Origin: a virus
Taxonomy: Duplodnaviria > Caudoviricetes
Reading direction: 5' to 3' (one strand)
Length of the DNA stretch: 64,000 nt
IMG/VR virus record: IMGVR_UViG_3300021959_000031
Location: 1,565-65,564 of that record
Shown here piece after piece: positions 2,744 to 38,662 of this stretch. A program made the translations under genes and the position numbers. The notes below the pieces were generated by a model, which saw nothing but the letters and a program-made list of their open reading frames with translations, did not search any database and was not told where the DNA came from. Positions within the stretch are counted from its first letter, which is position 1. Every line of letters starts with the position of its first letter.

Positions 2744-3511
2744 ATGTTAGGAAACGATTATTTTTACAATGAGAATATCAAGAAAACTGTTGCAGTTTTT
2801 GGTTCTGTTTTCAATGATATCTACATAGCAAAAAGAGGAAATGGTGGGGTGCAAGATATACAAAGAGTTCCTCTAGCTTACGCACCTAAAGAGAGATACT
2901 TGGCTAGAATTAATCAATCCGATAAAGGTGATGTTTCTATAAGACTTCCAAGGATGAGCTTTGAGGTTACGAGTATAGAATATGATTCAGAGACTAAGTT
3001 AAATAAACTTAACAGAACTATTCAAAGTAAAGATGGTGATGATTTCCGTGTTTGGCAGGCAGCTCCGTATAAGTTAGGGATGTCGTTGCACGTAATGAGT
3101 AGAGGTCAAGAAGAAGCTCTACAAGTTGTCGAACAGATATTACCGTTTTTCAATTCTACTTACTCGGTTACAGTTAAAGGAATGGAGGGTCCTGATAGCA
3201 AGACAGATATTCCAATAACATTAAACAGTGTAAATTTTGAAGATGATTATCAGGGTGATTTTGAAAGTAGTAGAAGGGTTGTGATCTATACTTTGGAGTT
3301 TAATATATCACTGAAGTTCGGTCTTCCTATCACTGGTGCAAAACAGGTTAAAAACATCACTACCAACTTCACTGACGACGATGGTGATATTCTAACTAGT
3401 GTTAATGTCAGAACTAAATATCGAGATCAGACTAAAGAAGATCACGAAGTTATTTGTGAGTTAGATTATGATTTTGATGTTAATGACTGGCCTGAAACTC
3501 CACCAGATTAA
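2744..3511 (+). CDS. gp15: tail sheath stabilizer/terminator gp15
   Basis: YFYNE.IKK.V.VFGSVFN, VPLAYAPKE, LPRMSFE, QVVEQILPFF. Confidence 0.92.
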   Translation: MLGNDYFYNENIKKTVAVFGSVFNDIYIAKRGNGGVQDIQRVPLAYAPKERYLARINQSDKGDVSIRLPRMSFEVTSIEYDSETKLNKLNRTIQSKDGDDFRVWQAAPYKLGMSLHVMSRGQEEALQVVEQILPFFNSTYSVTVKGMEGPDSKTDIPITLNSVNFEDDYQGDFESSRRVVIYTLEFNISLKFGLPITGAKQVKNITTNFTDDDGDILTSVNVRTKYRDQTKEDHEVICELDYDFDVNDWPETPPD

Positions 3512-3519
3512 ATTCTATT

Positions 3520-3981
3520 ATGGCATTCGATTCAGAAAAAAAATCAGAAATTCTAAAAAGCTTAGAGAGTAACTTGCCCGTTGAAGACAAGCAAGAGATA
3601 TCTAAGGTCGATGATTTGAAATTACCATCAACTCAGTCTGTTGTTGATGATGGTGAAGATGATTATAATTTTGCTAGAGAAAATATCAAAAAACTTATAG
3701 GAACTAGTGACGATGCTATCAACTTGATGCATGAACTTGCTTCAGAGGCAGAACACCCAAGAGCATTCGAAGTTCTTGCTACTATGATAAAGAATGCTTC
3801 TGATATGAACAATCAATTATTAGACTTGACCCAAAAAAGAAAAAAGCTTCTCAAAGATGACGAGAATAAATCTAACAAGTCAAATTCAAACACTACGAAT
3901 AATGTGATCTTTAGTGGAACTACAACTGACCTACAAAAGTTGTTGTCAAAAAAAGAAGATGATGTCATTGATGTAGATTAA
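3520..3981 (+). CDS. gp16: terminase small subunit
   Basis: DDYNFARENI, EHPRAFEV, NNVIFSGTTTDLQK; directly before gp17. Confidence 0.88.
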   Translation: MAFDSEKKSEILKSLESNLPVEDKQEISKVDDLKLPSTQSVVDDGEDDYNFARENIKKLIGTSDDAINLMHELASEAEHPRAFEVLATMIKNASDMNNQLLDLTQKRKKLLKDDENKSNKSNSNTTNNVIFSGTTTDLQKLLSKKEDDVIDVD

Positions 3982-3984
3982 ATA

Positions 3985-5568
3985 ATGAGCGAAAACAATG
4001 GTTACAACGGTAACTCTTTAGTTAAAGACGATGCTGTTCAGCAGAACTTTACGACTGAAGAGGTCAAGGAGTATGCAATGTGCATGAATGACATTGCTTA
4101 TTTCTGTGAAAACTATGTTAAAGTTATTTCTCTTGATGATGGGTTAGCTCCATTTAAACTAAGGGGTTATCAAAAAGACTTGGTTGATCATTATGAGGAA
4201 AATCGTTTCTCTGTAGTAAAAGCTTGTAGGCAAAGCGGAAAGAGTATCACATCAGTTGCTTATCTTCTTCATTATTTGGTATTCAATCCAGATAAGAAAG
4301 TTGCTATACTGGCAAACAAGGGGTCTACTGCTAGAGAGATGTTAGCTAGGTTGACACTAATGCTAGAGCATCTGCCATTCTTTCTTCAGCCTGGTTGCAA
4401 AACTCTAAACAAAGGAAATATTGTTTTTAGTAACAATAGTGAAGTTATTGCAGCTGCTACAAGTTCAAGCAGTATTCGAGGTTTAGCTATTCATGTTCTC
4501 ATGTTGGATGAGTTTGCTTTTGTTAATGATGCTGATGAGTTTTATACAAGTACATATCCCGTAATTTCTTCTGGTAAAGATACTAAAGTTATCATAACGA
4601 GTACTCCAAATGGAATTGGAAATATGTTTTATAAGATATGGGAGGGATCTCAGCAAAATGCTAATGAATTCAAACCATTTTCAATTGGATGGAGAGATGT
4701 TCCTGGAAGAGATGATGAGTGGAGAAAACAAACGATAGCGAACACAAGTGAAGCACAGTTCAAGCAAGAGTTTGAATGTGATTTTCTGGGTTCAAGTCAG
4801 ACTTTGATTGATGCTAATGTTCTTCTAGGTTTAACTAGTGGAAACCCCATTAAAGAGCAATATGATATTAAGTTTTATAGAGAGCCGATAGAGGGTCATG
4901 AATATGTATTATGTGCAGATGTTTCTAAGGGTAGAGGTCAAGATTACAGCACGTTTAGTGTAGTTGATGTAACTTCATCACCATTTGAGCAAGTAGCAAC
5001 TTACAGGCAGAACACAGTATCTCCATTATTGTTTCCAGATTTTATTATTAGAGCTGCCAAGATATACAATGATGCTTTAGTGGTGATAGAGAATAACGAT
5101 GTTGGGCAGGTTGTTTGTAATAGTGTTTATTATGATCACGAATATGACAACACATTCACAACAAGTTCAGTTAAGAGTAATGGTATTGGAGTTACAATGT
5201 CTACCAAAGTCAAAAGAATAGGTTGCTCTAATCTTAAGGATTTGCTTGAGGATAACCAAATCTTGATTGTTGATCCAGATACTATTTTAGAACTCAGTTC
5301 TTTTGCACCTAAAGGGAAAAGTTATGCGGCAACACAAGGGAACCACGATGATAGTGTTATGAACTTCGTTCTTTTTGCTTGGTTCGTTAGCACTGATGTT
5401 TTTCAGAGTATGTCGAACACAGAACTCAGAGAGTTACTTTATAAAGAGAAGCTTATGCAGATGGAAGAAGACTTACCTCCATTTGGTTTTATAAACAATG
5501 GAGTTGATAACACCAATAAAATACATGATCAGTTGGTCGAAGATGCAAAATCTTGGTCTAATCTTTAG
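3985..5568 (+). CDS. gp17: terminase large subunit
   Basis: Walker A RQSGKS, Walker B LMLDEFAF, ITSTPNG, nuclease DVSKGRGQDYS and HDD motifs. Confidence 0.97.
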   Translation: MSENNGYNGNSLVKDDAVQQNFTTEEVKEYAMCMNDIAYFCENYVKVISLDDGLAPFKLRGYQKDLVDHYEENRFSVVKACRQSGKSITSVAYLLHYLVFNPDKKVAILANKGSTAREMLARLTLMLEHLPFFLQPGCKTLNKGNIVFSNNSEVIAAATSSSSIRGLAIHVLMLDEFAFVNDADEFYTSTYPVISSGKDTKVIITSTPNGIGNMFYKIWEGSQQNANEFKPFSIGWRDVPGRDDEWRKQTIANTSEAQFKQEFECDFLGSSQTLIDANVLLGLTSGNPIKEQYDIKFYREPIEGHEYVLCADVSKGRGQDYSTFSVVDVTSSPFEQVATYRQNTVSPLLFPDFIIRAAKIYNDALVVIENNDVGQVVCNSVYYDHEYDNTFTTSSVKSNGIGVTMSTKVKRIGCSNLKDLLEDNQILIVDPDTILELSSFAPKGKSYAATQGNHDDSVMNFVLFAWFVSTDVFQSMSNTELRELLYKEKLMQMEEDLPPFGFINNGVDNTNKIHDQLVEDAKSWSNL

Positions 5569-5595
5569 CTTTAAGTTTTATGAAATTGTTGTTTT

Positions 5596-5603
5596 TATAA
5601 ATA
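5596..5603 (+). promoter_or_regulatory. late promoter TATAAATA for gp18
   Basis: Exact consensus in the intergenic gap. Confidence 0.8.
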
Positions 5604-5677
5604 AATCCATTGAGATTAAACCTTATTATGCTTAACTTATTATCAAAAATATAAACTAACCGAAAGGAAACAAACAA

Positions 5678-7402
5678 ATGGGATTTTTAGTATCACCTGG
5701 AGTCGAGGTCAATGAAATTGACTTGACAAACATCATCCCAGCTCTCTCCACTAGTATTGGAGCATATGCTGGGTATTTTAATTGGGGACCTGCTGGCGAA
5801 GTAGTCACAGTATCCTCTGAGAAGCAATTAGCACAAGTATTTGGGTCGCCTGAAAAAGCAGACTCAGCTGAGATATCATTCTTTACTGCAGCTAGTTTTT
5901 TGAAGTATGGAAACAATCTTAAAGTTTCTAGAGCAATTCCAACAGATGCGTATAACGCAAAATCTGGAACTGGTTCAGCAGACTTTACTATTTCAAACAG
6001 AGATGAACTTGAGCTTAATGCTGGAGGTCTTCAAACAGATGGAGCAGAAGTAGTTGCTCGTTATGTTGGAGAGCTTGGAAATAGCATTAAAACTTACATA
6101 GTTGACAGCGCAGTTTACGCTGATTCTCCACCACTTCCATCGAATGTTCTCGGTGCATTACCATATGCTCCCGATGACACTGTATTTGGATCAACTTTAG
6201 CTGGTGCTGGAATCAATGACGAAGTTCATGTGGTTGTGGTAGATGCTGATGGAAAAATCACAGGAACTAAAGATGCTATTCTTGAAGTTCATGCTGGTCT
6301 TTCAACTGCACAAAATGCTAAGAGTGAATATGGTGACAGTAACTATTTTGTTACAGTTATCAACAACAACTCTTCATTCATCTGGCTCGCTCCAGAAGCA
6401 ACTCCAACTGTTATCGATGAGGACACAGCTGATATTGTTAATGGATTCACATCTGCTGGATTAGATTTAGCTGGTGGTGCAACAGGAACTATGACAAGTG
6501 CAGGTCCTGTTGAGACTGCTTTGACATTCTTCGATGATGCAATCAAGATTGATGTTAACCTTCTTTTCGCACAAAACTTCGCAGATGGATCAACTTATAC
6601 TGGTTCAAGCACAGAGACAATCGACAACAAGTTGGTTGAAATTGCTAATGCTCGTAAGGATGCAATCTCGTTTATTTCTGCACCACTCAGTGTTGTAGAC
6701 CAGACAAGTGAAGATGCTAAGAAAGGAAAGATCCTAGACAAGTTTAATGGAATTTCTTCAAGTAGTTATATATTCTTTGATAGTTCACCCGCTTATGTTT
6801 ACAACAAATATCGTGATGGTTATGTTTGGATTCCACTATGTGGTCACATGGCTGGTCTTTGTGCTGGAACAGATGACGTTGCAGACCCTTGGTTCTCACC
6901 AGCTGGATACACAAGAGGAAACGTCCTCGGTGTAACTAAGTTGGCTTATAACCCAGGTCAAGTTGCAAGAGATGAGTTATACACAAAGCGTGTTAACCCT
7001 GTTGTTAGTTTTCCAGGTCAAGGAATCGTTCTTTTCGGTGACAAGACTGGTCTTACTAAGCCCTCTGCTTTTGATCGTATCAATGTTCGTAGACTATTCA
7101 CCACAATCGAAAAAGCAATTGCAACTGCTTCTAAGTTCCAGTTGTTTGAACTCAATGATGACTTCACACGTTCTACATTTAGAAACGCTGTTGAACCATA
7201 CTTGAGAGATGTTCAGGGTCGCCGTGGAATCACCGACTTCAAAGTTGTCTGTGACGAAACCAACAATACTGGTGACGTTATCGATGGCAATCGTTTTGTT
7301 GCTGATATCTACATCAAACCAACTCGTAGCATTAACTTCATATCGTTGAACTTTATTGCAACTAGAACTGGTGTTAGCTTCGATGAAATCATTGGAGAAT
7401 AG
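5678..7402 (+). CDS. gp18: tail sheath protein
   Basis: SPGVEVNEIDLT, WFSPAG..RG, FGDKT, FDRINVRRLF, YIKPTRSINFI. Confidence 0.97.
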   Translation: MGFLVSPGVEVNEIDLTNIIPALSTSIGAYAGYFNWGPAGEVVTVSSEKQLAQVFGSPEKADSAEISFFTAASFLKYGNNLKVSRAIPTDAYNAKSGTGSADFTISNRDELELNAGGLQTDGAEVVARYVGELGNSIKTYIVDSAVYADSPPLPSNVLGALPYAPDDTVFGSTLAGAGINDEVHVVVVDADGKITGTKDAILEVHAGLSTAQNAKSEYGDSNYFVTVINNNSSFIWLAPEATPTVIDEDTADIVNGFTSAGLDLAGGATGTMTSAGPVETALTFFDDAIKIDVNLLFAQNFADGSTYTGSSTETIDNKLVEIANARKDAISFISAPLSVVDQTSEDAKKGKILDKFNGISSSSYIFFDSSPAYVYNKYRDGYVWIPLCGHMAGLCAGTDDVADPWFSPAGYTRGNVLGVTKLAYNPGQVARDELYTKRVNPVVSFPGQGIVLFGDKTGLTKPSAFDRINVRRLFTTIEKAIATASKFQLFELNDDFTRSTFRNAVEPYLRDVQGRRGITDFKVVCDETNNTGDVIDGNRFVADIYIKPTRSINFISLNFIATRTGVSFDEIIGE

Positions 7403-7403
7403 T

Positions 7404-7411
7404 TATAAATA
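7404..7411 (+). promoter_or_regulatory. late promoter TATAAATA for gp19
   Basis: Exact consensus. Confidence 0.75.
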
Positions 7412-7442
7412 GTATTAATAAACATTAACAAAATACAAAAAT

Positions 7443-7979
7443 ATGTCTAATATATCTGATTTTAAAGCAAACTTTAACGGTGGGTCTAGAGCAAACTTGT
7501 TCAAGGCTATCGTTAATTTTCCTGGTGATAACAAGTCATTAACTGAACTGAGTTCTTTCATGATCAAGGGAGCATCTCTCCCCGCCAGTGTAATTGCAAA
7601 CATTGATGTTCCTTATAGGGGTCGTCAAATTAAAGTTGCAGGTGACCGCACATTCGAACCAATGACATTCACTGTTATCAATGATGGTAACATGGTGATT
7701 CGTAATGAGTTCGAAAAGTGGATGAATGCAATTAGCGCACATGAGGGTAATACTTCAGCATTCTCAACAGTTGGCAATCCTCTTGCTTACTATGCAGATG
7801 TTGAAATCTACCAGCTAGATCGCTCTGGAAGTGAAGTTCCAACTAAAGCATACAAGCTTATTGATGCTTATCCTACAAACGTAAGTGCAATCGAGTTGTC
7901 ATATGATGCCAACGATGCAGTTGAAGAGTTTACTGTAGAGATGAGTTTCCAATACTGGACTTCAAATACAACATCTTAA
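7443..7979 (+). CDS. gp19: tail tube protein
   Basis: GG.RANLF, ASLPAS, YRGRQIKVAGDRTF, YPTNVSAIELSYD, EEFTVE..FQYW. Confidence 0.96.
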   Translation: MSNISDFKANFNGGSRANLFKAIVNFPGDNKSLTELSSFMIKGASLPASVIANIDVPYRGRQIKVAGDRTFEPMTFTVINDGNMVIRNEFEKWMNAISAHEGNTSAFSTVGNPLAYYADVEIYQLDRSGSEVPTKAYKLIDAYPTNVSAIELSYDANDAVEEFTVEMSFQYWTSNTTS

Positions 7980-7997
7980 TTTAAAGAAAACAAAAAT

Positions 7998-8036
7998 CAG
8001 TTTCACTATGGGGCCTAAAATCCCATAGTGAAACTG
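7998..8036 (+). terminator. 15-bp perfect inverted-repeat hairpin after gp19
   Basis: CAGTTTCACTATGGG ... CCCATAGTGAAACTG; weak U tract. Confidence 0.6.
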
Positions 8037-8050
8037 TTATATATAATTAC

Positions 8051-9556
8051 ATGAATCTATTTGGATATGAAATAACTAAGAAGATCGATGCAGGGGAATC
8101 TAAAAAGCAGACCCCCGAGTTGCAATCGTTTGCGAACCCTATGGACTCTGAGGGTACATCTTATGTTAGTGCAGTTGGTGGTGGTGCAGGATTTAACACC
8201 CAAATTTTAGATTTAGATTCTCACTCATCTGGCAGTGAGAAAGATCTTATAAAAAAATATAGGCAGACCGCGGCGCAACCAGAGTGTGATATTGCAATCA
8301 ATGATATTTTAAATCAGGCTATAGTATCTGACACTGAAAGTCCTGTTAACTTAGTACTAGACAAAGTTGATTTGCCCGATAAGATTAAGACTAGTATCAA
8401 AAATGAATTTGAGTCTGTTCTTAATCTTTTAGACTTTAACTTTTCTGGTCATGACATTTTCAGAAGATGGTATATTGATGGGAAGTTGTATTACCATTTG
8501 CTTGTCGATAATGACAACCTTAAAGGTGGTATTCAAGAGGTAAGAATGGTTGATCCTTTGAATATAAAAAAGGTTAAAGAAGTTAAAAGAAAACTCGACA
8601 AGAACAGTGGTGTCGAGACTTCTTCATTGAGTAAAGAGTATTACGTTTATAGTGAATCTTCTGATTCTGGTTTAAAAAATAACGCGCTCAAGATTGACCC
8701 TAACAGTATCGTTTACACTCCAAGTGGTATGCTTGATGAGTATGGTAAATTTTCGATATCCTATTTACACAAGAGTATTAAGTTGGTGAACCAGTTGCGG
8801 GTCATGGAAGACTCTCTTGTTATCTACAGAATATCACGGGCACCAGAAAGAAGAATTTTCTACATCGATGTTGGAAACCTTCCAAAAGGTAAAGCAGAAG
8901 AGTATGTTCAAGGCATAATGAGCAAGTATAGGAACAAACTTGTCTATGATGCTACTAGTGGTGAGATCAGTGATGATAGAAAAACAATGAGTATGCTTGA
9001 AGATTTCTGGCTTCCTCGCCGTGAAGGTGGTAAGGGAACTGAGATAACAACTCTTCCTGGTGGTGAAAACCTAAGTCAAATTGACGATATCTTGTTTTTC
9101 CAGAAGAAACTATACAAGTCGTTAAACGTTCCAGTTGGGAGACTTGAAGAAGATAATGCATTTAGTGTTGGAAGAGCTAGTGAAATTACTAGAGATGAAG
9201 TCAAGTTTCAAAAGTTCATCAATAGATTGAGACTCAAGTTCAGCACACTGTTCATTGATATGCTGAAGGTTCAGTGCCTTCTTAAAGGTATCGTAACCAA
9301 AGATGAGTGGCCTCAAATACGTGAAAATGTGGAGATAGATTACTCAGAAGATAACTATTTCACAGAACTCAAAAACTTCGAAATAATGAGAGAGCGAATG
9401 GCTATGCTTCAAGATGTCGAAGATTATGTTGGAAAATACTTCAGTAAGTCTTGGGTTAGATCTAATGTGTTAAATATGACAGAGGATGATGTTGAAAAAC
9501 TAGAAAAGGAAATGGAGTCTGACGGTTCTAGAGATGAAGAAGAAGGAGAATTTTAA
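8051..9556 (+). CDS. gp20: portal vertex protein
   Basis: FRRWYIDG, EDSLVIYRISRAPERRIFYIDVGNLPK, EDFWLPRREGGKGTEITTLPGG. Confidence 0.97.
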   Translation: MNLFGYEITKKIDAGESKKQTPELQSFANPMDSEGTSYVSAVGGGAGFNTQILDLDSHSSGSEKDLIKKYRQTAAQPECDIAINDILNQAIVSDTESPVNLVLDKVDLPDKIKTSIKNEFESVLNLLDFNFSGHDIFRRWYIDGKLYYHLLVDNDNLKGGIQEVRMVDPLNIKKVKEVKRKLDKNSGVETSSLSKEYYVYSESSDSGLKNNALKIDPNSIVYTPSGMLDEYGKFSISYLHKSIKLVNQLRVMEDSLVIYRISRAPERRIFYIDVGNLPKGKAEEYVQGIMSKYRNKLVYDATSGEISDDRKTMSMLEDFWLPRREGGKGTEITTLPGGENLSQIDDILFFQKKLYKSLNVPVGRLEEDNAFSVGRASEITRDEVKFQKFINRLRLKFSTLFIDMLKVQCLLKGIVTKDEWPQIRENVEIDYSEDNYFTELKNFEIMRERMAMLQDVEDYVGKYFSKSWVRSNVLNMTEDDVEKLEKEMESDGSRDEEEGEF

Positions 9557-9568
9557 ATAAATAATAAG

Positions 9569-10189
9569 ATGAATGATTTAGTAAACAAAATAAAGCAGGG
9601 AAGCGAATCAGCTGACGAAGAATTTCAGAGTGGTATCTTAGACAAGGTTCGTGATGCACTGGATATGAAAAAAGTTGAGCTGGCTTCGAAAGTCTTCAAT
9701 TCAGAACCAATCGAAGAATCTACTAGGGAGATCGATATTGTTAAGGAAGCCGCCAACAAAATTATGAATCTTTCAGAAGCAGAAGTCGATGAAGAAGCAA
9801 AAAAGAATGCTGAAATTCTTAGAGATTTGTATTTAAAAGAGTTTCCAAATGGTTATGCTACAGTATCTAAAGCACCTCTAGGGAGTGATACTTTCTACTT
9901 GAAAGCTTATATCGGTAAGCCTGACACTTGGGCTAATGGAATATCTCAAAACGATGATCTTGCACATGCTTATCTTGTTACTAAAGACGGTGTTGAGTCT
10001 TCTCAGGGTATATCTTTGATGGTTGATCCAGAAAAGAAACATTTGGCAATGAGCAGAGTGAAGATTCCCTTCAGAAAGAAGAGTGGAAAAAATATGATTT
10101 CTGGAATGAAAAAACACTTCGCTAATATGAGAAAGATTGTAATGGCTAATAAAGATAAAATCTTTCATCGTAAAAATATCAAGCTATAA
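9569..10189 (+). CDS. gp67-like prohead core protein with extra C-terminal domain
   Basis: Position right after portal; N-terminal amphipathic segment (DLVNKIK..ADEEF..ILDKVRDALDMKKVELASKVF) resembles gp67; AATAAATA 5 nt upstream; C-terminal ~130-aa globular domain is extra. Confidence 0.65.
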   Translation: MNDLVNKIKQGSESADEEFQSGILDKVRDALDMKKVELASKVFNSEPIEESTREIDIVKEAANKIMNLSEAEVDEEAKKNAEILRDLYLKEFPNGYATVSKAPLGSDTFYLKAYIGKPDTWANGISQNDDLAHAYLVTKDGVESSQGISLMVDPEKKHLAMSRVKIPFRKKSGKNMISGMKKHFANMRKIVMANKDKIFHRKNIKL

Positions 10190-10193
10190 TCAA

Positions 10194-12497
10194 ATGAAGG
10201 AGTCAACAGAAAGCATTGAGTTTGTTTTAGATGAAAGCAAAGATCTTAAATTAAAAATACCCAATGATGTAATTAAGATCCATAAGCTATTCAAAAAGAA
10301 TGGCAAAAAACTCTATGTGGTTGGTGGAGCTGTAAGAGATGCAATACTTGGTAAATCACCAAAAGATTTTGATGTAGCGACTGATGCTAAACCAGATGAG
10401 GTTGAAAAGATAGCAAGGGATAATGGTATAAAAACTAAACCTGTTGGGAAGCAGTTTGGTGTTGTTTTGTATATTATCAATGGAGTGGAATATGAGATTG
10501 CAACATTTAGAAAAGATATTGGAAAGGGCAGAAGACCATCATCAGTAGATTATACTGATATTAAAGGTGATGTTAAAAGAAGAGATTTGACTGTGAATGC
10601 ATTATTCTATGATATTGATAAAAAAGAGATTGTAGATTTGGTTGGTGGTATTGCAGATTTAAAAAATAAAAACATCAGAACAGTTGGTAAAGCTAAAGAA
10701 AGATTTGATGAAGACCCCTTAAGAAAACTAAGGGCATTAAGATTTTGGACAAGAATGGGTGGTAAGTTAGATAAAGAGTTGTTAGACGCTTTACAAGATG
10801 ACTCATCATTAAAAGGAATCAGTTCAGAAAGAATTAGAGATGAGTTTATAAAGTCAATCAAATCATCAAAAAATACAGAAGAGTATATGGATATGTGTGA
10901 TAAGATTGGATTCACATCTCAGATATTCCCAAATCTAAAAGTATCAAAACCATATCCAAAAACAAATGACTTCATTTTGTTCTTGGCGTGGATATTAAGA
11001 GAGAATTCACCAATTGTATTAAATAGAGTTCTAAATGAGATAAGCTACACAAAGAAAGAAATACAAGAAATTGTTTATCTAATCAATCTTCAAGATTTCG
11101 AACCTGAAAATATTATTTCGTATAAGAAAAAACAATCTGAATCAGATGACAATAGGATTATTGCTTTTGGTAAAATGATTGGAAAAGATATGAAAAAGTT
11201 TGTCAATTTCAAGTTGTCACTTAAAGGGGCAGATATTCCATCTGATCTAAAAGGTCCCGAAAAGGGACAATGGATAAAAAATAAAGAAAAAGAGAATTTC
11301 ATGAAAAAATTAATAGAAAGCATTAAGTCGGGATCTGAAAAAGCTAGATCTGAGTTGAACGAGTTGTTGACTCAGAAAGTCAAAGTTCTTGTTAGTGAAG
11401 AGAAAAAGAATATAGCAAAGAATATTCTTAAAGAAGAGTCTATTACAGAGGATTTAGATCCTAATAGTGACGCTAAAGTTTGGATAGATGACTTTGTTAA
11501 AAGTGATGCACCTCAGTTCAAAGGGAAAACGAAAGAACAAAGAGTGAATATGGCATTAGGTGCTTACTATTCTGCTAGAAAAGAAGCTGGTCTTGAAGAA
11601 TCTATCGATCTTGAAGAAGCAACATTCAAGAACAAAGAGGTTGAGAAAAGATTTCTCGCATTGAAAAAGATGTCATCTTCTCAACTTAAGAAAGCTCACA
11701 GTGATGGTGTTGGTGGTTCTACTAGTGGTATGTCAGATGAAGACTTCATCAACGACATTCTTCTTTCAGAGTTTGGTATAAAGAAACTCAGTGAGGAAGC
11801 TGGTGTTTACTACACTTCTGATGGTGTTGAGTGGACTGGTCAAACACATTCACACCCGAATGGAAAAGTTATGACGGGAAAATCTCACACTGATGACAGT
11901 GTTGATCTACACACTATGGATGATTTGTCACCCGATGCTAAGAAAAAAGCAATGGAAGGTTCTGGATCTATGTCTGAGTCTGTAATGGATCAGAAGATGT
12001 GGGATAAGATCAAGAGGGGTGACAAACTAACAATTAGCTACGATGATAGCATAAGTGGTGGTAATAAAGTCACTCTTGTTGTAGTGAGTAAAAATATCGT
12101 TGGTAAGCAGAGGGTTGGTAAAATGACAATGAAGCGGGCAGATGGTAGTAGCAAGTTCAAATTCTACATTTACAATCGTGATGGTAAAATGGGCTTGGCA
12201 ATTGGCAATTTAGCAGCTAGCATGACAGATGTCGTGATGGAGAGTGAAGATGTTGAGGATCTTAAAGAGTGGGGTTCTTCAGACTGGTATAGTGTTATAA
12301 AATCAATGGACAAATACTTGAAAAAAGCAGGTGTTAATCCAGATACAATCACACAAGCCGCCCAAGATCAAGCAGATTTTTATTACGATGATATGGGATA
12401 TGATAGTGCTGAAGATGCTGTTCCAAGAATTATTGATATGTGGAAAATCAGATCTAAGACTGGTCAGAAGTTAATGGCAATGTTCGGTAAAAAATAA
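10194..12497 (+). CDS. class II tRNA nucleotidyltransferase (CCA-adding-like) fused to a gp67-like helix and several small domains
   Basis: Motif A VVGGAVRD..KDFDVAT, B RRDLTVNAL, D RFDEDPLR, E SSERIRDE in aa 1-370; then MKKLIESIKSGSEKARSEL..KNIAKNIL and further modules separated by xxE linkers. Confidence 0.88.
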   Translation: MKESTESIEFVLDESKDLKLKIPNDVIKIHKLFKKNGKKLYVVGGAVRDAILGKSPKDFDVATDAKPDEVEKIARDNGIKTKPVGKQFGVVLYIINGVEYEIATFRKDIGKGRRPSSVDYTDIKGDVKRRDLTVNALFYDIDKKEIVDLVGGIADLKNKNIRTVGKAKERFDEDPLRKLRALRFWTRMGGKLDKELLDALQDDSSLKGISSERIRDEFIKSIKSSKNTEEYMDMCDKIGFTSQIFPNLKVSKPYPKTNDFILFLAWILRENSPIVLNRVLNEISYTKKEIQEIVYLINLQDFEPENIISYKKKQSESDDNRIIAFGKMIGKDMKKFVNFKLSLKGADIPSDLKGPEKGQWIKNKEKENFMKKLIESIKSGSEKARSELNELLTQKVKVLVSEEKKNIAKNILKEESITEDLDPNSDAKVWIDDFVKSDAPQFKGKTKEQRVNMALGAYYSARKEAGLEESIDLEEATFKNKEVEKRFLALKKMSSSQLKKAHSDGVGGSTSGMSDEDFINDILLSEFGIKKLSEEAGVYYTSDGVEWTGQTHSHPNGKVMTGKSHTDDSVDLHTMDDLSPDAKKKAMEGSGSMSESVMDQKMWDKIKRGDKLTISYDDSISGGNKVTLVVVSKNIVGKQRVGKMTMKRADGSSKFKFYIYNRDGKMGLAIGNLAASMTDVVMESEDVEDLKEWGSSDWYSVIKSMDKYLKKAGVNPDTITQAAQDQADFYYDDMGYDSAEDAVPRIIDMWKIRSKTGQKLMAMFGKK

Positions 12498-12508
12498 AAT
12501 AAAATAAA

Positions 12509-12988
12509 ATGAAATCATTCGAAAATTATCTAGAAGAAGATTACGCAGAACTGCGTAGTTTTATTATTGAAGGTGTGGAGGTAACTATATCTGATTCAGA
12601 TCTCGATTCTTGTTTAGAAGAAATCGAAGATTTTAGTGATGATGTCAATGAGGCTCTGAACACTAGACAGAGGATGGATAGAAAGAACATGATGAAGAAG
12701 TATAAGCTTAACATAGCTCGCGGAAGGAAGAAAGCTGCGAAAAAGAGAGCTGGTCTTCCTAAGTTGAAAAGTAGAGCTATGAAAGCTGCTCGTAATCTTC
12801 TCATGAAAAAACTCTCCAAGGGTAAAGATAAGGCTAATATGTCTTTTGCTGAAAAGGAGAAGATAGAGAAGATACTTGATTCCAAGACAAAAAAGATAAA
12901 GGCGATTGCTAAAAAGCTTCTTCCTAAGATCATAAAGAAAGAGAAAGAGAAGCAGGCAATGAAGAAAAAAGGTGGTTCAGAAGAGTAA
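12509..12988 (+). CDS. gp68-like prohead core protein
   Basis: Acidic N-terminus and very basic C-terminal helix, immediately before gp21; starts MKSFENYLEE. Confidence 0.6.
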   Translation: MKSFENYLEEDYAELRSFIIEGVEVTISDSDLDSCLEEIEDFSDDVNEALNTRQRMDRKNMMKKYKLNIARGRKKAAKKRAGLPKLKSRAMKAARNLLMKKLSKGKDKANMSFAEKEKIEKILDSKTKKIKAIAKKLLPKIIKKEKEKQAMKKKGGSEE

Positions 12989-13024
12989 TATATCAAAATA
13001 AAACAATTCTAAACTTCTGAAATT

Positions 13025-13032
13025 TATAAATA
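13025..13032 (+). promoter_or_regulatory. late promoter TATAAATA for gp21
   Basis: Exact consensus 9 nt before ATG. Confidence 0.8.
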
Positions 13033-13041
13033 ATATCACAA

Positions 13042-13698
13042 ATGAAATTAATAACGGAGCATAGCGAAAACTTAGACTACATAACTGAATCATCAGAAAA
13101 TGGAGAGAAGAAGTTTGTTATCGAAGGCGTTTTCATGCAGGCTGATAAACTCAATAGGAATAAAAGAGTATACCCTAAAGAAATTTTAGAGAAGGCAGTT
13201 GATTCGTATGTCAAAGAGTATGTGAGCAAGGGTCGTGCAGTTGGTGAACTCAATCACCCTGAGGGCCCAGCAATCAACTTGGATAAAGTATCACATAGAA
13301 TCACTGAACTGAGTTGGAGCGGTTCTGATGTTATTGGTAGAGCTTTAGTTCTTGGAACTCCAATGGGTAACATTGTTAAAGGCTTAATCGAAGGTGGTTG
13401 CCAACTTGGAGTTAGTTCCCGTGGTGTTGGAACAGTTGGTAATAAAGATGGAAAAACAACAGTAAACAGTGACTTCGTTTTGTCAACAGTTGATATTGTT
13501 CAAGACCCCAGCGCACCCTCTGCATTCGTCAATGGCATCATGGAAGGTGTTGAATATTTCTATGAAGGTAATGATATTATTTCAATGGCTTCAGATAAAG
13601 CTTCTAAAAAGATGAGTAAACTCTCATCTAGTCAACTCGCAGAGCAACAAGTGAAGTTGTTCAAAGATTTCTTGTCAGAGATCAAAGTTGATATTTAA
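13042..13698 (+). CDS. gp21: prohead core protease
   Basis: MKLITE, IEGVFMQ...NRN.RVYP, GELNHP, LGVSSRG.G, DIVQDPSAPSAFV.GIMEG. Confidence 0.96.
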   Translation: MKLITEHSENLDYITESSENGEKKFVIEGVFMQADKLNRNKRVYPKEILEKAVDSYVKEYVSKGRAVGELNHPEGPAINLDKVSHRITELSWSGSDVIGRALVLGTPMGNIVKGLIEGGCQLGVSSRGVGTVGNKDGKTTVNSDFVLSTVDIVQDPSAPSAFVNGIMEGVEYFYEGNDIISMASDKASKKMSKLSSSQLAEQQVKLFKDFLSEIKVDI

Positions 13699-13813
13699 AA
13701 ATTTTTATATAATGGATAATGTGATTTGTATTATGGGATATGTTGTATAATTATGAGACTGAAATCCTTCTTGTGTTTCCTCTCCAAATCTAAAGAAAAC
13801 AAAGTAAAAAAAT

Positions 13814-15409
13814 ATGGAAAAAGATACTGATATCATTGAAGATATTACTGAATCCGATTTACTTTCTCTTGAAGAGTCAAAAGTAGAGGTTGATACTGAC
13901 ACTGTTGATAGTGACGAGGAAGAAATGGAAGAAGGTAATGAATTCACCAAAGCCGCCGCGAAAGCTCGTGTTGCAGGCGAGGAAGAGTTCGAATTTGAAG
14001 GTGAAGTTTATCCTACAGAAATCGACTTGGAAGTTGCCAAGAAGATTCTCGGTATGGAAGAAGATGTTGCTAAGATCAAGTCTGTTGCAAAATCTCTTAA
14101 GGTTGGTGATGTCACTAACTTTGGAGCTGTTGTTAAGAAAGGATCTGACTTCATCACGTTTAAAGCCAAAGACACTCCAGAAACTAAGATCAAGTTTGGT
14201 CAAAAGAAGTCTGGTGGTCAACTTGTGCTTGAACCACTTCAACTCATGAAAGAAGACTCTGAGCAAACTGAAGAAGTAGTTGCTGAAGAAGAAGTAGTCG
14301 AAACAACTCAAGAAGTAGTTGCAGATGAAACTGAAGAAGTAGTTGCTGAAGAAGTTGCAGAAGAAGAAGCTACTGAAGAAGAAGCTACTGAAGAAGTAGT
14401 TGCTGAAGAAGAAGCTACTGAAGAAGAAGTTGATACTGAGAACATCGATGAATCTGAAATGGCTGGATGGATAGCTTTCTACAACGGCAAGAAAGTAGAG
14501 ATCAAAAAGAGTGAAGCAAATGATCTATACGGAGCTAAGATGAAGGCTGCCAAAATGCTAAACGTACCTAAATCTAAGATGGGTCTCTTAGCTATCAAGC
14601 CTGGATACAATGAAGAAGTAGTTGCTGAAGATGAAGTTGACACTGAGAACATCAAGAAGTTGATCGAATCAGAAGAAGGTTTATCTGATGAGTTTAAAGC
14701 TAAATCCGCATTGATTTTCGAAACTGAGATTCGCAGTAAAGTGGATCAAGTTAAGGAGGAAATGCAACTTAAATATGACGCTCAACTTGAAGAAAAGGTT
14801 CAAGAAGTTGAAGAAGAGAATACTAAACAAATTGATGGATATCTCACTTATGCTGTTGAAGAATGGCTTGGAGAGAATAAGGTCGCTGTTGAGAGTTCAC
14901 TTCGCACAACTATTGCTGAAAACTTCATGAGTTCTCTCAAGGACTTGTTTGTTGAGCATTATGTCGAAGTTCCAGAAAGCAAGGTTGATCTTTTCTCTGA
15001 TCTTGAAGAAGAGACTAGTCAACTCAAAGATGATCTATCTGAAGCGAAGGAAATCATCGAACAACTTGTTGGTCGATTGGAAGTCTTCACTAAGGAAAAG
15101 ATTGTATCTGAAGCTTCTGAAGGTCTTGCTGAGACTCAAGTTGCGAAACTTGAATCTATGGTAGAATCTGTAGAGTTCGAAGATGCTGATTCATTCTGCA
15201 AAAGAGTTCAAACCCTTAAGGAGTTCTACTTCAATGTAGAATCCTCAATTAAAGAAGAAAAAGAATGTGAAGAAGAGGATGGTAGCTCTTCTTATGTCAC
15301 TACTGAAACTATTGTCGAAGAGACAGAAGTTGAGGAAGTGCCAAGCACAATGAAAAAATACCTAAATGCTATTACTCGTCTTGATCGTGCAAGCGTAAAG
15401 ATAAAGTAA
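13814..15409 (+). CDS. gp22: prohead core scaffold protein, enlarged by inserted domains and acidic repeats
   Basis: C-terminal half LSDEFKAK..LIFE, DGYLTYAVEEW..ENKVAVE...IAENFM.SLK.LFVEHY..VPE, M.KYL.AI; between gp21 and gp23. Confidence 0.92.
   Translation: MEKDTDIIEDITESDLLSLEESKVEVDTDTVDSDEEEMEEGNEFTKAAAKARVAGEEEFEFEGEVYPTEIDLEVAKKILGMEEDVAKIKSVAKSLKVGDVTNFGAVVKKGSDFITFKAKDTPETKIKFGQKKSGGQLVLEPLQLMKEDSEQTEEVVAEEEVVETTQEVVADETEEVVAEEVAEEEATEEEATEEVVAEEEATEEEVDTENIDESEMAGWIAFYNGKKVEIKKSEANDLYGAKMKAAKMLNVPKSKMGLLAIKPGYNEEVVAEDEVDTENIKKLIESEEGLSDEFKAKSALIFETEIRSKVDQVKEEMQLKYDAQLEEKVQEVEEENTKQIDGYLTYAVEEWLGENKVAVESSLRTTIAENFMSSLKDLFVEHYVEVPESKVDLFSDLEEETSQLKDDLSEAKEIIEQLVGRLEVFTKEKIVSEASEGLAETQVAKLESMVESVEFEDADSFCKRVQTLKEFYFNVESSIKEEKECEEEDGSSSYVTTETIVEETEVEEVPSTMKKYLNAITRLDRASVKIK
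14265..14446 (+). repeat. acidic tandem repeats (EEVVAEEE / EEEATEEE) within gp22
   Basis: Repeated GAAGAAGTAGTTGCTGAAGAA and GAAGAAGCTACTGAA units. Confidence 0.85.
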
Positions 15410-15446: not shown

Positions 15447-16667
15447 ATGTTCAATTCAGAAGAATTAGAAAAAAAGTGGGCCCCAATTCTTGAGGCGTCC
15501 GATGCACCTGCGTTTGCTGATCAGCACCGCAAGGCAGTTACTTCCGTCCTGCTTGAAAACCAAGAGAAGGCTCTCCAAGAGGCTTCTGCTCAAGCAAGTT
15601 TCCTTAGTGAGCAAACTGATTCAGGCGATTCTGCCAACTGGAATCCAGTATTGATTAGCCTTGTTCGTCGTGCTACTCCAAACCTCATTGCTTATGACGT
15701 TTGTGGTGTTCAGCCAATGACTGGCCCAACTGGACTCATTTTCGCAATGAAGTCACGTTACCAGACAGCTGATACTGTTAACAGTCCTGCACAACACGCA
15801 GCTGGTGATGAAGCTCTCTTCAATGAGCCAACTCCTGGATTCTCTGGTTCACAATCCACTGCACTTGGTGAGCAACTTGGTAACACAGGTGCTTATGGTG
15901 AGATGGGCTTCACTGTTGAAAAAGTTTCTGTTGAAGCTAAGACACGCGCTCTTAAAGCTGAATACACAATGGAACTTGCACAAGATCTTAAAGCAATTCA
16001 TGGTCTTGATGCTGAAGCTGAGCTTGCAAGCATTCTCTCTACTGAGATCCTTGCTGAGACTAACCGTGAAATCATCGGTCTGATCAACTCATCTGCTAAA
16101 GCAGGTGGTGCAGCTGCTGGTGGTTCATTCAGCCTCAACACTGATGCTGATGGTCGTTGGGCAAATGAGAAGTTCAAATCACTTCTCTTCCAACTTGAGC
16201 TTGATGCTAACGCAATTGCCAAAGGCACTCGTCGTGGAAAAGGTAACTATGTTATCTGTTCCTCCAACGTTGCTTCTGCACTTGCCGCAGCTGGTGTTCT
16301 TGATTACTCAACTGCTCTTTCAACTAACCTCAATGTTGATGACACTGGTAATACCTTCGCTGGTATGATCAATGGTCGCATCAAGGTTTACGTTGATCCA
16401 TATGCCGCAGCTGATTACGCAACTGTTGGTTACAAGGGTACAAACTCTTACGATGCTGGTATCTTCTACTGCCCATACGTTCCTCTTACTATGGTTCGTG
16501 CAGTTGGTGAGAACACATTCCAACCTAAGATTGGTTTCAAGTCACGTTACGGAATTGCAAGTAACCCAATGGTTACTGATCCTGCATCTTCTACTGGCGG
16601 TCTTGCAGCTAATGCTAACCCATACTTCAGAAGTTTCTCTGTATCGGGTATCAATGTTGAAGACTAA
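15447..16667 (+). CDS. gp23: major capsid protein
   Basis: LLENQE, PVLISLVRR..PNLIAYDVCGVQPMTGPTGLIFAM, ELAQDLKAIHGLDAEAEL, FYCPYVPL, FQPKIGFKSRYG. Confidence 0.98.
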   Translation: MFNSEELEKKWAPILEASDAPAFADQHRKAVTSVLLENQEKALQEASAQASFLSEQTDSGDSANWNPVLISLVRRATPNLIAYDVCGVQPMTGPTGLIFAMKSRYQTADTVNSPAQHAAGDEALFNEPTPGFSGSQSTALGEQLGNTGAYGEMGFTVEKVSVEAKTRALKAEYTMELAQDLKAIHGLDAEAELASILSTEILAETNREIIGLINSSAKAGGAAAGGSFSLNTDADGRWANEKFKSLLFQLELDANAIAKGTRRGKGNYVICSSNVASALAAAGVLDYSTALSTNLNVDDTGNTFAGMINGRIKVYVDPYAAADYATVGYKGTNSYDAGIFYCPYVPLTMVRAVGENTFQPKIGFKSRYGIASNPMVTDPASSTGGLAANANPYFRSFSVSGINVED

Positions 16668-16692
16668 TTTCAACTAGAGATTAAAAACTATG

Positions 16693-16724
16693 GAGAGTCA
16701 CTCGAAAGAGTGGCTCTCTTTTTT
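16693..16724 (+). terminator. rho-independent terminator after gp23
   Basis: GAGAGTCACTC-GAAA-GAGTGGCTCTC followed by TTTTTT. Confidence 0.9.
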
Positions 16725-38650: not shown

Positions 38651-38662
38651 TATAATAAGATT

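What the first reader, a model, noticed from the sequence alone, without database searches (positions are those of the whole stretch)
9569..15409. Prohead-core genes look like protease-processed cargo polyproteins: a candidate capsid-loading and delivery system
Seen: three of the five ORFs between portal and capsid are much larger than T4 gp67 (~80 aa) and gp22 (~270 aa). 9569 is a gp67-like helix plus a ~130-aa domain; 10194 is a nucleotidyltransferase plus a second gp67-like helix plus about five small modules; gp22 (531 aa) carries three small modules. Junctions repeatedly carry hydrophobic-x-E motifs (VLDE/S, LIE/S, ITE/D, DLEE/A, LSE/E, MSE/S, LKE/W in 10194; MEE/G, MEE/D, MKE/D, IDE/S in gp22; LSE/A in 9569), like FLSE/Q at the gp23 N-terminus. 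Established: T4 gp21 cleaves core proteins after Glu in (L/I)-x-E, and some head-internal proteins (IPs, Alt) are injected into the host. Inference: foreign domains are loaded into the head by fusion to core proteins, cut free by gp21 and ejected with the DNA.
Basis: partly seen in the sequence, partly recalled or inferred. Interest (0 to 1): 0.88.

Follow-up and report, generated by a model that had tools for sequence, protein, structure and literature searches.

The report
Phage head-core genes carrying cargo modules
In this marine T4-like phage the small head-core and scaffold genes have grown into strings of swappable protein modules, one of them a tRNA-repair enzyme, joined by linkers that look like cutting sites of the phage's own head protease, which suggests a way of loading proteins into the capsid.

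Summary
Between portal (8051-9556) and capsid gene (15447-16667) lie ORF206, ORF767, ORF159, the gp21 protease and a 531-aa gp22. ORF767 is a class II CCA-adding enzyme fused to a T4 gp67-like helix and five small modules. gp22 carries three extra N-terminal modules.

The hydrophobic-x-Glu motif is not enriched overall, but it is strongly tied to junctions.
- Four ORF767 modules recur in 2007 metagenomic representative proteins.
- A motif lies at the module's N-edge in 161 of 172 copies, against 23% by chance.
- Relatives 88-99% identical differ by whole modules, with breaks at these linkers.
- Polyprotein N-termini resemble the T4 capsid-targeting leader.

Most related phages keep such polyproteins in a separate gene cluster. 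Fusion to gp67 and gp22 is special to this small lineage.

Cleavage, packaging and ejection remain untested. I read this as a new variant of T4's leader-targeted, gp21-processed internal-protein system (confidence about 0.55). I found no description of it in the literature I searched.

The parts
7998..8036 (+). Terminator-like hairpin before the portal gene; upstream end of the portal-to-gp23 block
   Evidence: 16-pair stem with 7 GC pairs, followed by a T-run
8051..9556 (+). gp20 portal protein
   Evidence: Portal_T4, 1.5e-168
9569..9718 (+). ORF206 residues 1-50: gp67-like helix, ending in (I/L)-E-E50
   Evidence: 32% identity to ORF767 370-419, E=0.002; conserved in 4 of 4 family members. 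Direct match to T4 gp67 is not significant (E=0.74).
9719..9793 (+). ORF206 residues 51-75: variable linker that holds LSE70
   Evidence: indels in all three relatives; P0328 lacks residues 55-73
9794..10186 (+). ORF206 residues 76-206: conserved C-terminal domain of unknown function
   Evidence: nearly invariant; no Pfam family; only 3 clusters in 5.8 billion proteins in the length range searched; no usable Atlas hit.
10194..10235 (+). ORF767 residues 1-14: N-terminal leader ending VLDE14, absent from free-standing NTase relatives
   Evidence: relatives start MSN-LKLKIP, or carry L-x-E-S directly before the same point
10236..11300 (+). ORF767 residues 15-369: class II CCA-adding tRNA nucleotidyltransferase
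   Evidence: PolyA_pol 3e-35 and RNA-binding domain 1.3e-5; 6ibp 3e-34, catalytic motifs aligned; 65-82% identity to hundreds of phage-type relatives.
11301..11450 (+). ORF767 residues 370-419: gp67-like helix that starts with Met370 and ends ILKE414 / SITE419
   Evidence: 39.7% identity to T4 gp67 1-58, E=1e-5; phrog_1064 'prohead' 4.3e-5. Pfam GP67 below cut-off.
11451..11600 (+). ORF767 residues 420-469: module A, ending GLEE469
   Evidence: 79 copies in 77 of 149 representative proteins; motif exactly at P3-P1 in 71 of 79
11619..11795 (+). ORF767 residues 476-534: module B, preceded by DLEE475 and ending KLSE534
   Evidence: conserved in P0003 and P0004; no copies among the 149 representatives.
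11796..11978 (+). ORF767 residues 535-595: module C, ending SMSE595
   Evidence: replaced by an unrelated block in P0003 and deleted in P0004; 6 copies elsewhere.
11979..12269 (+). ORF767 residues 596-692: module D, a small beta-barrel, ending DLKE692
   Evidence: 62 internal copies, motif within -8..+1 in 61; strands at 611-683, pLDDT >90 for most of it.
12270..12494 (+). ORF767 residues 693-767: module E, a four-helix unit
   Evidence: 25 copies, motif near the edge in 23; helices at 695-765; it forms the N-terminus of a 247-aa protein in L020.
12509..12988 (+). ORF159: basic protein in the gp68 position, with a leader like the T4 capsid-targeting sequence (CTS) (MKSFENYLEE)
   Evidence: the family has 19 short stand-alone forms and 11 long forms, and also occurs as a module inside NTase polyproteins (2.4e-10 to 4e-8). 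T4 gp68 is not detected by the family profile.
13025..13032 (+). TATAAATA, T4 late-promoter-like box before gp21
   Evidence: 12 matches in the window against 5.6 expected, 11 of them on the + strand
13042..13698 (+). gp21 prohead protease
   Evidence: Peptidase_S77 2.6e-41; 47% identity to T4 gp21; itself enriched in the motif (12 vs 5.4, p=0.001).
13814..13933 (+). gp22 residues 1-40: acidic leader ending EMEE40
13934..14062 (+). gp22 residues 41-83: module 1, ending GMEE83
   Evidence: conserved in 5 of 5; a similar block is seen in P0194 and P0198 (by eye).
14063..14254 (+). gp22 residues 84-147: module 2, ending LMKE147
   Evidence: homologous block in P0177 and P0199; in P0199 it is followed at LKE by a copy of module A
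14255..14452 (+). gp22 residues 148-213: acidic Glu/Val/Ala repeats of variable length, ending NIDE213
   Evidence: length differs in every relative
14453..14617 (+). gp22 residues 214-268: module 3, a recent insertion
   Evidence: present in the window only, of 5 aligned; 67-91% identical copies in about 45 proteins that are not gp22.
14645..15373 (+). gp22 residues 278-520: T4-type scaffold domain
   Evidence: T4_CASP 1.8e-56
15447..15611 (+). gp23 residues 1-55: predicted propeptide ending FLSE55
   Evidence: BLAST alignment to T4 gp23 (residues 6-402 against 8-521). FLSE55 lines up with T4 FLTE65 by eye and by my own residue count. That T4 is cut there is recalled, not taken from a call.
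16692..16719 (+). Terminator-like hairpin after gp23
   Evidence: 12-pair stem with 6 GC pairs, followed by a T-run

Best explanation
The genes between portal and capsid encode precursor polyproteins of the prohead core.

**Proposed mechanism.** A T4-type targeting element brings each precursor into the assembling core. That element is a short N-terminal leader, a gp67-like helix, or the gp22 scaffold itself. The gp21 protease then cuts after Glu in hydrophobic-x-Glu linkers and frees the attached units inside the head: a CCA-adding enzyme and about nine small domains of unknown function. Some of these are then likely to leave with the DNA, as the T4 internal proteins (IPs) and Alt do.

**Origin of the modules.** They come from a large pool shared among marine T4-like phages. 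Most of those phages keep the modules in a separate cluster of leader-bearing polyproteins. This lineage has fused some of them to core and scaffold genes.

**Shown here.** The architecture, the mobility of the modules, the tie between motif and junction, the leader resemblance, and the placement in a late-gene block.

**Inferred.** Cleavage, packaging, ejection, and any role after entry.
For: 1. **Discrete, mobile modules.** ORF767 residues 370-767 hit 2007 representative proteins (E<=0.001). The hits fall in four separate blocks of the query, at varied places in proteins of 63-1303 aa. gp22 module 3 occurs at 67-91% identity in about 45 proteins that are not scaffolds.

2. **Motif at junctions.** Hydrophobic-x-Glu lies within -8..+1 of the module's N-edge in 72/79 (A), 5/6 (C), 61/62 (D) and 23/25 (E) copies. 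That is 161/172, against 23% expected per 10-residue window in the same proteins. For module A it sits exactly at P3-P1 in 71/79, against 2.6%. The sequence further upstream is not conserved.

3. **NTase boundary.** Wherever anything precedes the NTase domain, L-x-E-S comes directly before it. A cut there would leave nearly the N-terminus of the free enzymes.

4. **Indels at linkers.** Relatives 88-99% identical differ by whole modules. All three ORF767 breakpoints lie within 2 residues of a motif Glu. The chance is about 0.117 for each one.

5. **Independent domains.** The model of residues 585-767 (pLDDT 87) shows two independent domains. Its low-confidence stretches are 585-593 and 686-689, directly upstream of SMSE595 and DLKE692.

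6. **Leaders.**
   - 78 of 144 representative polyproteins have the motif Glu at positions 6-14, against 18% in internal controls and 11/53 in other window ORFs.
   - 30/144 start M-[KR]-x-[FYL], against 2.3%.
   - The T4 ipII and ipIII leader read from the T4 record is MKTYQEFIAE, and ORF159 starts MKSFENYLEE.

7. **Link to core proteins.** There is a gp67-like helix in ORF767 and fusion to a bona fide gp22. The ORF159 domain is embedded in NTase polyproteins.

8. **Late block.** Terminator-like hairpins bracket portal to gp23, and a late-promoter-like box stands before gp21.

9. **Published basis.** gp21 cuts after L/I-X-E. A 10-residue leader suffices for head targeting. IPs and Alt are ejected (PMC9026906, sections and passages read).
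Against: - No protein-level data exist for this phage or any relative I found.
- The motif is short, and its total count in the four proteins is not above composition-matched shuffles.
- Its conservation at module edges could partly belong to the modules' own folds, or to recombination joints.
- The NTase/gp67 junction has no site, so the enzyme would stay attached to the helix.
- Pfam GP67 is below its cut-off, and T4 gp68 is not found by the ORF159 family profile.
- In 0 of 76 related loci do the polyproteins lie beside a portal, gp21, gp22 or gp23 homologue within the flanks held (at most 6 kb). Their link to the head in those phages therefore rests on leaders and linkers alone.
- Most genes here lack a clear ribosome-binding site, so internal initiation at Met370 cannot be excluded.
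- The modules' functions are unknown: 0 fold matches at E<=0.001 in the PDB and in BFVD.
Confidence: 0.55

Rival explanations
1. The proteins are ordinary uncut multidomain proteins. The acidic hydrophobic-x-Glu stretches are flexible linkers and favoured recombination joints, and nothing is cleaved or packaged. The NTase works in the cytoplasm, for example on phage tRNA.
For: The motif is not enriched overall. Linkers such as ESVELDE recur and could serve as microhomology for shuffling. The one tRNA gene in the window has no encoded CCA, which gives the enzyme a conventional job. Related polyproteins are not beside head genes.
Against: Only P3 and P1 are kept while the other linker positions vary. 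That pattern points to selection on the protein rather than on DNA homology. It also does not explain the fusion to a scaffold protein and to a gp67-like helix, the placement in the late head block, or the T4-like leaders.
Confidence: 0.2
2. The proteins are cut by gp21, but the pieces are scaffold ballast. They help build or size the core and are then degraded and expelled, as most T4 gp22 and gp67 fragments are. They are not delivered to the next host.
For: T4 gp22, gp67 and gp68 are cut into fragments that mostly leave the head (PMC9026906, passage read). gp22 here has long acidic repeats of variable length. The modules have no recognisable function.
Against: An enzyme with all catalytic motifs kept is a costly filler, as are well-folded domains conserved across thousands of proteins. 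The turnover of modules between near-identical phages resembles the variable T4 internal-protein loci, which the T4 head review describes as a diverse set of defence proteins sharing only the leader (PMC3012670, passage read).
Confidence: 0.15
3. ORF767 yields two products. A full-length protein and a shorter one starting at Met370 are both made, so the gp67-like core protein is produced on its own and the NTase fusion is incidental.
For: Residue 370 is Met and aligns with Met1 of T4 gp67. The upstream DNA is A-rich, like the leaders of other genes here. T4 uses internal starts in genes 17 and 21 (annotation; PMC9026906).
Against: The in-frame fusion is kept in all 4 sequence clusters that have it, from several sources. 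No stop or frameshift separates the parts. This reading does not exclude packaging of the long form.
Confidence: 0.08
4. The long ORFs are assembly or frame artefacts that join neighbouring genes.
For: The window comes from a metagenomic virus record of 65,564 bases estimated 36% complete.
Against: The same fused ORFs occur in P0002-P0004 and in locus L004, from other assemblies, at 88-99% identity and with the same gene order.
Confidence: 0.02

Closest known systems
T4 internal proteins (IPI, IPII, IPIII) and Alt: capsid-targeting-sequence cargo processed by gp21
   Same: Both have a short N-terminal leader ending in hydrophobic-x-Glu: the T4 ipII/ipIII leader MKTYQEFIAE and ORF159 MKSFENYLEE, and many polyprotein leaders such as MKTFKQLIAE. 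Both have a gp21-family protease next door, and cargo that varies between close relatives. The published T4 facts are L/I-X-E cleavage, a 10-residue leader that is sufficient for targeting, and ejection of IPs and Alt (PMC9026906; PMC3012670).
   Different: T4 cargo is one protein per gene with one leader. Here up to six units are strung in one polypeptide with internal linkers, and some are fused to core or scaffold proteins rather than to a leader. The cargo includes a tRNA nucleotidyltransferase. No experimental data exist.
T4 prohead core proteins gp67, gp68 and gp22
   Same: The position between portal and capsid gene is the same. There is a gp67-like helix (39.7% identity over 58 residues) and a T4_CASP scaffold domain (1.8e-56).
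   Different: The sizes are 206, 767, 159 and 531 aa, against 80, 141 and 269 aa in T4. The extra mass consists of foreign modules. The gp68 relationship is positional only.
Polyvalent proteins of phages and conjugative elements (Iyer et al. 2017, PMC5512222)
   Same: Many domains sit in one polypeptide. Such proteins are encoded by phages with portal-terminase systems and are predicted to be packaged and delivered with the DNA (passages read).
   Different: None of the hallmark domains named in the passages I read was found by Pfam in the window's proteins. The passages shown gave no case of a T4-type leader, gp21-type linkers or fusion to a scaffold. The word 'prohead' occurs once in that paper, in a passage that was not shown to me.
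Propeptide-processed head and ejection proteins of giant phages (phiKZ, 201phi2-1, SPN3US)
   Same: Many head-internal proteins are cut after Glu by a gp21-related protease, and propeptides are thought to target them to the head (PMC9026906; listing of PMC5694885 and PMC7411985).
   Different: Their motif is S/A-X-E, and the proteins are separate genes, not shuffled module strings. The phage here is a T4-like marine myovirus, not a giant phage.
Free-standing phage CCA-adding enzymes
   Same: The fold and catalytic motifs are the same. 504 phage records encode relatives.
   Different: None of those 504 records covers 80% of ORF767. Here the enzyme carries a leader, a gp67-like helix and five modules, and it sits among late head genes.

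Membership tests
T4 gp67 (Pfam PF17634) | Sequence match to the family model at the curated threshold | tested here: not met
   ORF767 residues 370-427 score 17.2 bits (E=0.0069) against a cut-off of 27. ORF206 has no hit.
T4 gp67 (Pfam PF17634) | Pairwise similarity to T4 gp67 itself, and position directly after the portal gene | tested here: met
   ORF767 370-426 against T4 gp67 1-58, 39.7% identity, E=1e-5; phrog_1064 'prohead' 4.3e-5. Gene order. ORF206 is linked only through ORF767 (E=0.002).
T4 gp68 | Sequence homology to T4 gp68 | tested here: not met
   27% identity over 62 residues, E=0.02; a profile of 20 ORF159-family sequences gives no hit to T4 gp68 at E<=10. Only the position and the basic composition agree.
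T4 gp22 scaffold (PF25623 T4_CASP) | Family model above the cut-off; position between protease and capsid gene | tested here: met
   191.9 bits against a cut-off of 27, residues 278-520. E=2e-28 against T4 gp22.
gp21 prohead protease (Peptidase_S77) | Family model above the cut-off | tested here: met
   141.7 bits against a cut-off of 27; 47% identity to T4 gp21 over 143 residues.
Class II CCA-adding enzyme | Head domain with the GGxVRD, DxD, RRD and EDxxR motifs | tested here: met
   PolyA_pol 121.7 bits; alignment to 6ibp shows all four motifs. The motif names are recalled.
Class II CCA-adding enzyme | Addition of CCA, rather than poly(A), to tRNA | not testable with these tools
   Poly(A) polymerases score nearly as well (3aqm, 7e-31).
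T4-type CTS-targeted internal proteins | N-terminal leader of about 10-19 residues ending in L/I-x-Glu | tested here: met
   ORF159 begins MKSFENYLEE, and the ORF767 leader ends VLDE14; such leaders are enriched in 144 representative polyproteins.
T4-type CTS-targeted internal proteins | Cleavage of the leader by gp21 | not testable with these tools
   Needs proteomics or an in vitro assay.
T4-type CTS-targeted internal proteins | Presence inside mature heads and ejection with the DNA | not testable with these tools
   I found no virion proteome for any relative. The Melnitz paper has 'proteom' only in its reference list.
Polyvalent proteins (Iyer et al. 2017) | 2-15 domains in one polypeptide, encoded by a phage with a portal-terminase system | tested here: met
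   seven units in ORF767. Portal and TerL are in the window.
Polyvalent proteins (Iyer et al. 2017) | Hallmark conflict domains (peptidases, ARTs, kinases, ParB-type and others) | tested here: not met
   Pfam finds none of these in the window's proteins or in the 10 polyproteins scanned. It finds only DUF3008, DUF7230 and a weak HNH match.

The most novel reading that the evidence does not exclude
Marine T4-like phages may share a combinatorial cargo system.

- Thousands of polyproteins are built from a common pool of small domains and RNA-repair-type enzymes: a CCA-adding enzyme, an HD hydrolase, a cytidylyltransferase-like domain and a ligase-like domain.
- Each precursor is addressed to the prohead by a T4-like leader or by fusion to a core protein.
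- Each unit is released by the head protease at hydrophobic-x-Glu linkers.
- The same linker would serve both as the cutting site and as the joint at which modules are swapped between phages.
- The released units would be injected with the DNA as a ready-made, fast-evolving counter-defence and tRNA-repair kit.
Probability: 0.3. Interest if true: 0.85.

Novelty: new variant of a known kind. Interest (0 to 1): 0.72.

Why it matters
Loading proteins into a T4 head through a short leader, with release by gp21, is well studied in coliphages and is used in engineering. Until now it has been a matter of a few single-protein genes.

If the reading is right, abundant ocean phages use the same device on a much larger scale. 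They would string many units in one precursor and even use the scaffold as a carrier. That would assign a role to a large block of 'hypothetical' marine phage protein: 2007 representative clusters from four modules alone.

It would also suggest that enzymes acting on tRNA can be delivered with the genome. And it gives a direct test, because a cultured relative, Melnitz on OM43, carries such a cluster.

Tried and rejected
- **Overall motif enrichment.** Negative for ORF206, ORF767, ORF159 and gp22, so the argument rests on junction position only.
- **AlphaFold2 of full-length ORF767.** With a 3-sequence alignment the result was unusable (mean pLDDT 38.8).
- **First module alignment A1.** It was misaligned: module A copies were placed on module E. 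I did not use it.
- **Fold searches of the D+E model.** 0 matches at E<=0.001 in the PDB and in BFVD. The weak SH3/WYL/Tudor-like rows are not evidence.
- **ORF206 C-terminal domain.** No Pfam family, 3 clusters only, and no usable Atlas hit.
- **gp68 homology of ORF159.** Not supported.
- **Nearest records.** The phage collection has no near relative at DNA level; the best record covers 8% of the region. Only 5 of 50,697 records hold any C-terminal module.
- **Assembly artefact.** Rejected.
- **Literature.** Six full-text searches ran. None listed a paper that describes leader- or linker-bearing polyproteins or a capsid-borne CCA-adding enzyme in marine T4-like phages. The pelagimyophage paper PMC7029224 holds none of the six terms I asked for.
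- **Untested label.** The 'ligase-like' label for the C-terminal domain of P0005, P0068 and P0121 and for the Melnitz 419-aa protein is my reading of a K-x-D-G motif. No tool tested it.


Full report
**What is there.** The window is part of a 65.6-kb metagenomic virus record estimated 36% complete. It carries a T4-type late block in this order: TerL, sheath, tube, portal (8051-9556), ORF206, ORF767, ORF159, gp21 protease, gp22 scaffold, gp23 capsid protein, then uvsY and uvsW. Terminator-like hairpins at 7998-8036 and 16692-16719 bracket portal to gp23. The T4 late-promoter-like box TATAAATA occurs 12 times against 5.6 expected, 11 of them on the + strand, and one stands at 13025 just before gp21.

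The nearest isolates are marine Kyanoviridae. No record in the phage collection covers 80% of the region or of ORF767.

**Sizes.** T4 has gp67 of 80 aa, gp68 of 141 aa and gp22 of 269 aa. Phage C48C1 has 122 aa and 46 aa between portal and protease, and a 361-aa scaffold. Here the corresponding proteins are 206, 767, 159 and 531 aa.

**Anatomy of ORF767.**
- Residues 15-369 are a class II CCA-adding enzyme: PolyA_pol head 3e-35, best solved relative 6ibp at 3e-34, catalytic motifs aligned.
- Residues 370-426 begin with Met and are 39.7% identical to T4 gp67 residues 1-58 (E=1e-5). The Pfam GP67 model stays below its cut-off (17.2 against 27 bits).
- ORF206 residues 1-50 resemble this helix (E=0.002).
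- Five units follow: A 420-469, B 476-534, C 535-595, D 596-692 and E 693-767.

A search of 1.84 billion representative proteins with residues 370-767 gave 2007 hits at E<=0.001. The matched stretches fall in four separate blocks of the query, which are A, C, D and E. They lie at varied positions in proteins of 63 to 1303 aa. B had no copy among the 149 representatives examined.

A model of residues 585-767 built on a 30-sequence alignment reached pLDDT 87. It shows a beta-barrel (strands 611-683) and a four-helix unit (695-765). The low-confidence stretches are at 585-593 and 686-689, directly upstream of SMSE595 and DLKE692.

**Anatomy of gp22.** The T4_CASP scaffold domain covers residues 278-520. 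Before it lie an acidic leader, module 1 (41-83), module 2 (84-147), acidic repeats of variable length (148-213) and module 3 (214-268). Of five aligned sequences at 80-94% identity, only the window has module 3. The same module occurs at 67-91% identity in about 45 proteins that lack a scaffold domain. It is therefore a recent insertion into the scaffold gene. Module 2 recurs in P0177 and P0199; in P0199 a copy of module A follows it directly after LKE.

**The motif.** Their total number is not above composition-matched shuffles in any of the four proteins (ORF767 18 vs 15.3, p=0.24; gp22 36 vs 30.6, p=0.13). Only gp21 itself is enriched (12 vs 5.4, p=0.001). The bare count therefore proves nothing.

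Position is another matter. In 149 representative proteins, which are at most 50% identical to one another, a hydrophobic-x-Glu lies within -8..+1 of the module's N-edge in 161 of 172 copies. By module that is 72/79 (A), 5/6 (C), 61/62 (D) and 23/25 (E). The same proteins give 23% per 10-residue window by chance. For module A the motif is exactly at P3-P1 in 71 of 79 copies, against 2.6%. The residues further upstream differ from protein to protein.

The same holds at the start of the NTase domain. Free enzymes begin MSN-LKLKIP. Wherever a leader or another domain precedes, L-x-E-S stands directly before that point.

Between the window and relatives 88-99% identical, the differences are whole modules:
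- P0004 has an 81-residue block inserted after GLEES470.
- Module C is swapped in P0003 and deleted in P0004.

All three ORF767 breakpoints lie within two residues of a motif Glu; 11.7% of positions do so by chance. gp23 keeps FLSE55, aligned with T4 FLTE65.

One junction does not fit. There is no site between the NTase and the gp67-like helix. Also, LSE70 in ORF206 sits in a linker that one relative lacks, while (I/L)-E-E50 is kept in all four family members.

**Leaders.** The T4 record gives MKTYQEFIAE for ipII and ipIII, and MKTFKEFTS...ITE for ipI. ORF159 starts MKSFENYLEE, and its stand-alone relatives start MKSFKDF, MYSFKDYL or MIGFKEYLSE. Many polyproteins start in the same way.

Among 144 representatives that begin with Met:
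- 78 have the motif Glu at positions 6-14, against 18% of internal control windows and 11 of 53 other window ORFs.
- 30 begin M-[KR]-x-[FYL], against 2.3% of controls.

**Wider context.** The NTase has 572 relatives at E<=0.001. Of the 120 listed, four (P0001-P0004) share the fusion with the gp67-like helix and the modules. The others share mainly the enzyme, joined to other parts: an HD domain, a cytidylyltransferase-like domain, a HAD-like domain and others. In L001 one 1652-aa protein holds a cytidylyltransferase-like domain, an ORF159-like basic segment (2.4e-10), an HD domain, the NTase and a further C-terminal domain. It lies upstream of TerL and portal, not in the portal-protease slot.

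I fetched 76 viral loci with two polyproteins as queries. None has a portal, gp21, gp22 or gp23 homologue within the flanks held, which were at most 6 kb. Sixty-four have homologues of the Melnitz 419-aa or 651-aa proteins beside the match, often with an ORF159-like gene between them.

The cultured phage Melnitz has this cluster, with leaders such as MKKFSEIIE. Only Melnitz-type phages and C48C1 hold any C-terminal module of ORF767, which is 5 of 50,697 records.

So the pool of leader-and-linker polyproteins is widespread, while its fusion to gp67 and gp22 is a feature of this small lineage.

**Mechanism.** Published work on T4 establishes the following:
- gp21 cuts after Glu in L/I-X-E.
- The core holds gp21, gp22, gp67, gp68, Alt and the IPs.
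- The first 10 residues of IPIII suffice for head targeting, with positions 8 and 10 needed for processing.
- IPs and Alt enter the host (PMC9026906, passages and section 2.6 read; PMC3012670, passages).

On that basis I infer that these precursors enter the prohead core through a leader, a gp67-like helix or the scaffold. gp21 would then cut them at the linkers, and at least some pieces would stay in the head and leave with the DNA. The late-block placement of a tRNA enzyme fits use in the next infection better than use in the current one. This last point is inference.

**What remains open.** Cleavage, packaging and ejection have not been tested. The small modules have no known function: Pfam gives only DUF3008 and DUF7230 in relatives, and the fold searches found nothing at E<=0.001. 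Internal initiation at Met370 is possible. The single tRNA gene in the window lacks an encoded CCA, which gives the enzyme an ordinary alternative role.

**Novelty.** The principle is known from T4 and, in another form, from giant phages and from 'polyvalent proteins' (PMC5512222, passages read). Three things are new here:
- the multi-unit precursor format with internal protease-type linkers;
- the use of gp67 and gp22 as carriers;
- the nature of the cargo.

Six literature searches listed no paper on this, and term look-ups in two marine phage papers found nothing relevant.

Noticed in passing
window 38336-41305: A tandem array of seven similar ORFs of 103-176 aa on the + strand. Each begins M-[QE]-E-Y-[TK]-V and carries a shared W-Y-Q-[ND] motif within its first 24 residues. 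It looks like a paralogue family of unknown function.
   Followed up: no
window 45916-46689 and 46686-47042: Two further ORFs have T4-leader-like starts (MKSFRSFVES, MKSLNEITTS). By eye, the first resembles the cytidylyltransferase-like N-terminus of the Melnitz 651-aa protein but with the nucleotide-binding motif changed. Pfam finds nothing. They may be further head-cargo candidates outside the head block.
   Followed up: partly
window 61973-62058: The only tRNA gene is called Met, with anticodon CAT. It is 86 nt long and has no encoded 3' CCA.
   Followed up: partly
window 13042-13698: The gp21 protease is itself enriched in hydrophobic-x-Glu (12 against 5.4 expected, p=0.001), with LITE6 and YITE16 near its N-terminus. 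This recalls the proposed self-cleavage of T4 gp21 at LIE-9 (PMC9026906).
   Followed up: no
L001 1278-6236: A 1652-aa single ORF joins a cytidylyltransferase-like domain, a zinc-ribbon-like stretch, an ORF159-like basic segment, an HD domain, a CCA-adding enzyme and a C-terminal domain of about 390 aa with a K-x-D-G motif. It looks like a complete RNA-end repair set in one chain.
   Followed up: partly
L020 3745-7729: In another phage, module E of ORF767 heads a 247-aa protein. That protein follows an 874-aa and a 230-aa protein which share a D-G-[HN]-H-R motif (ParB-like by eye), next to a family B DNA polymerase-like ORF.
   Followed up: no
window 15447-16667: gp23 is only 406 aa, against 521 in T4. 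The BLAST alignment spans T4 residues 8-521 with long gaps, so a T4 insertion is probably missing.
   Followed up: no
L021 (Melnitz) 3473-11059: Eight consecutive 'hypothetical' genes of the cultured phage Melnitz lie here, and most of the seven whose starts were read begin with leader-like sequences ending in hydrophobic-x-Glu. Between them they include an ORF159-like basic protein and polyproteins with module D. This is a ready experimental system.
   Followed up: partly
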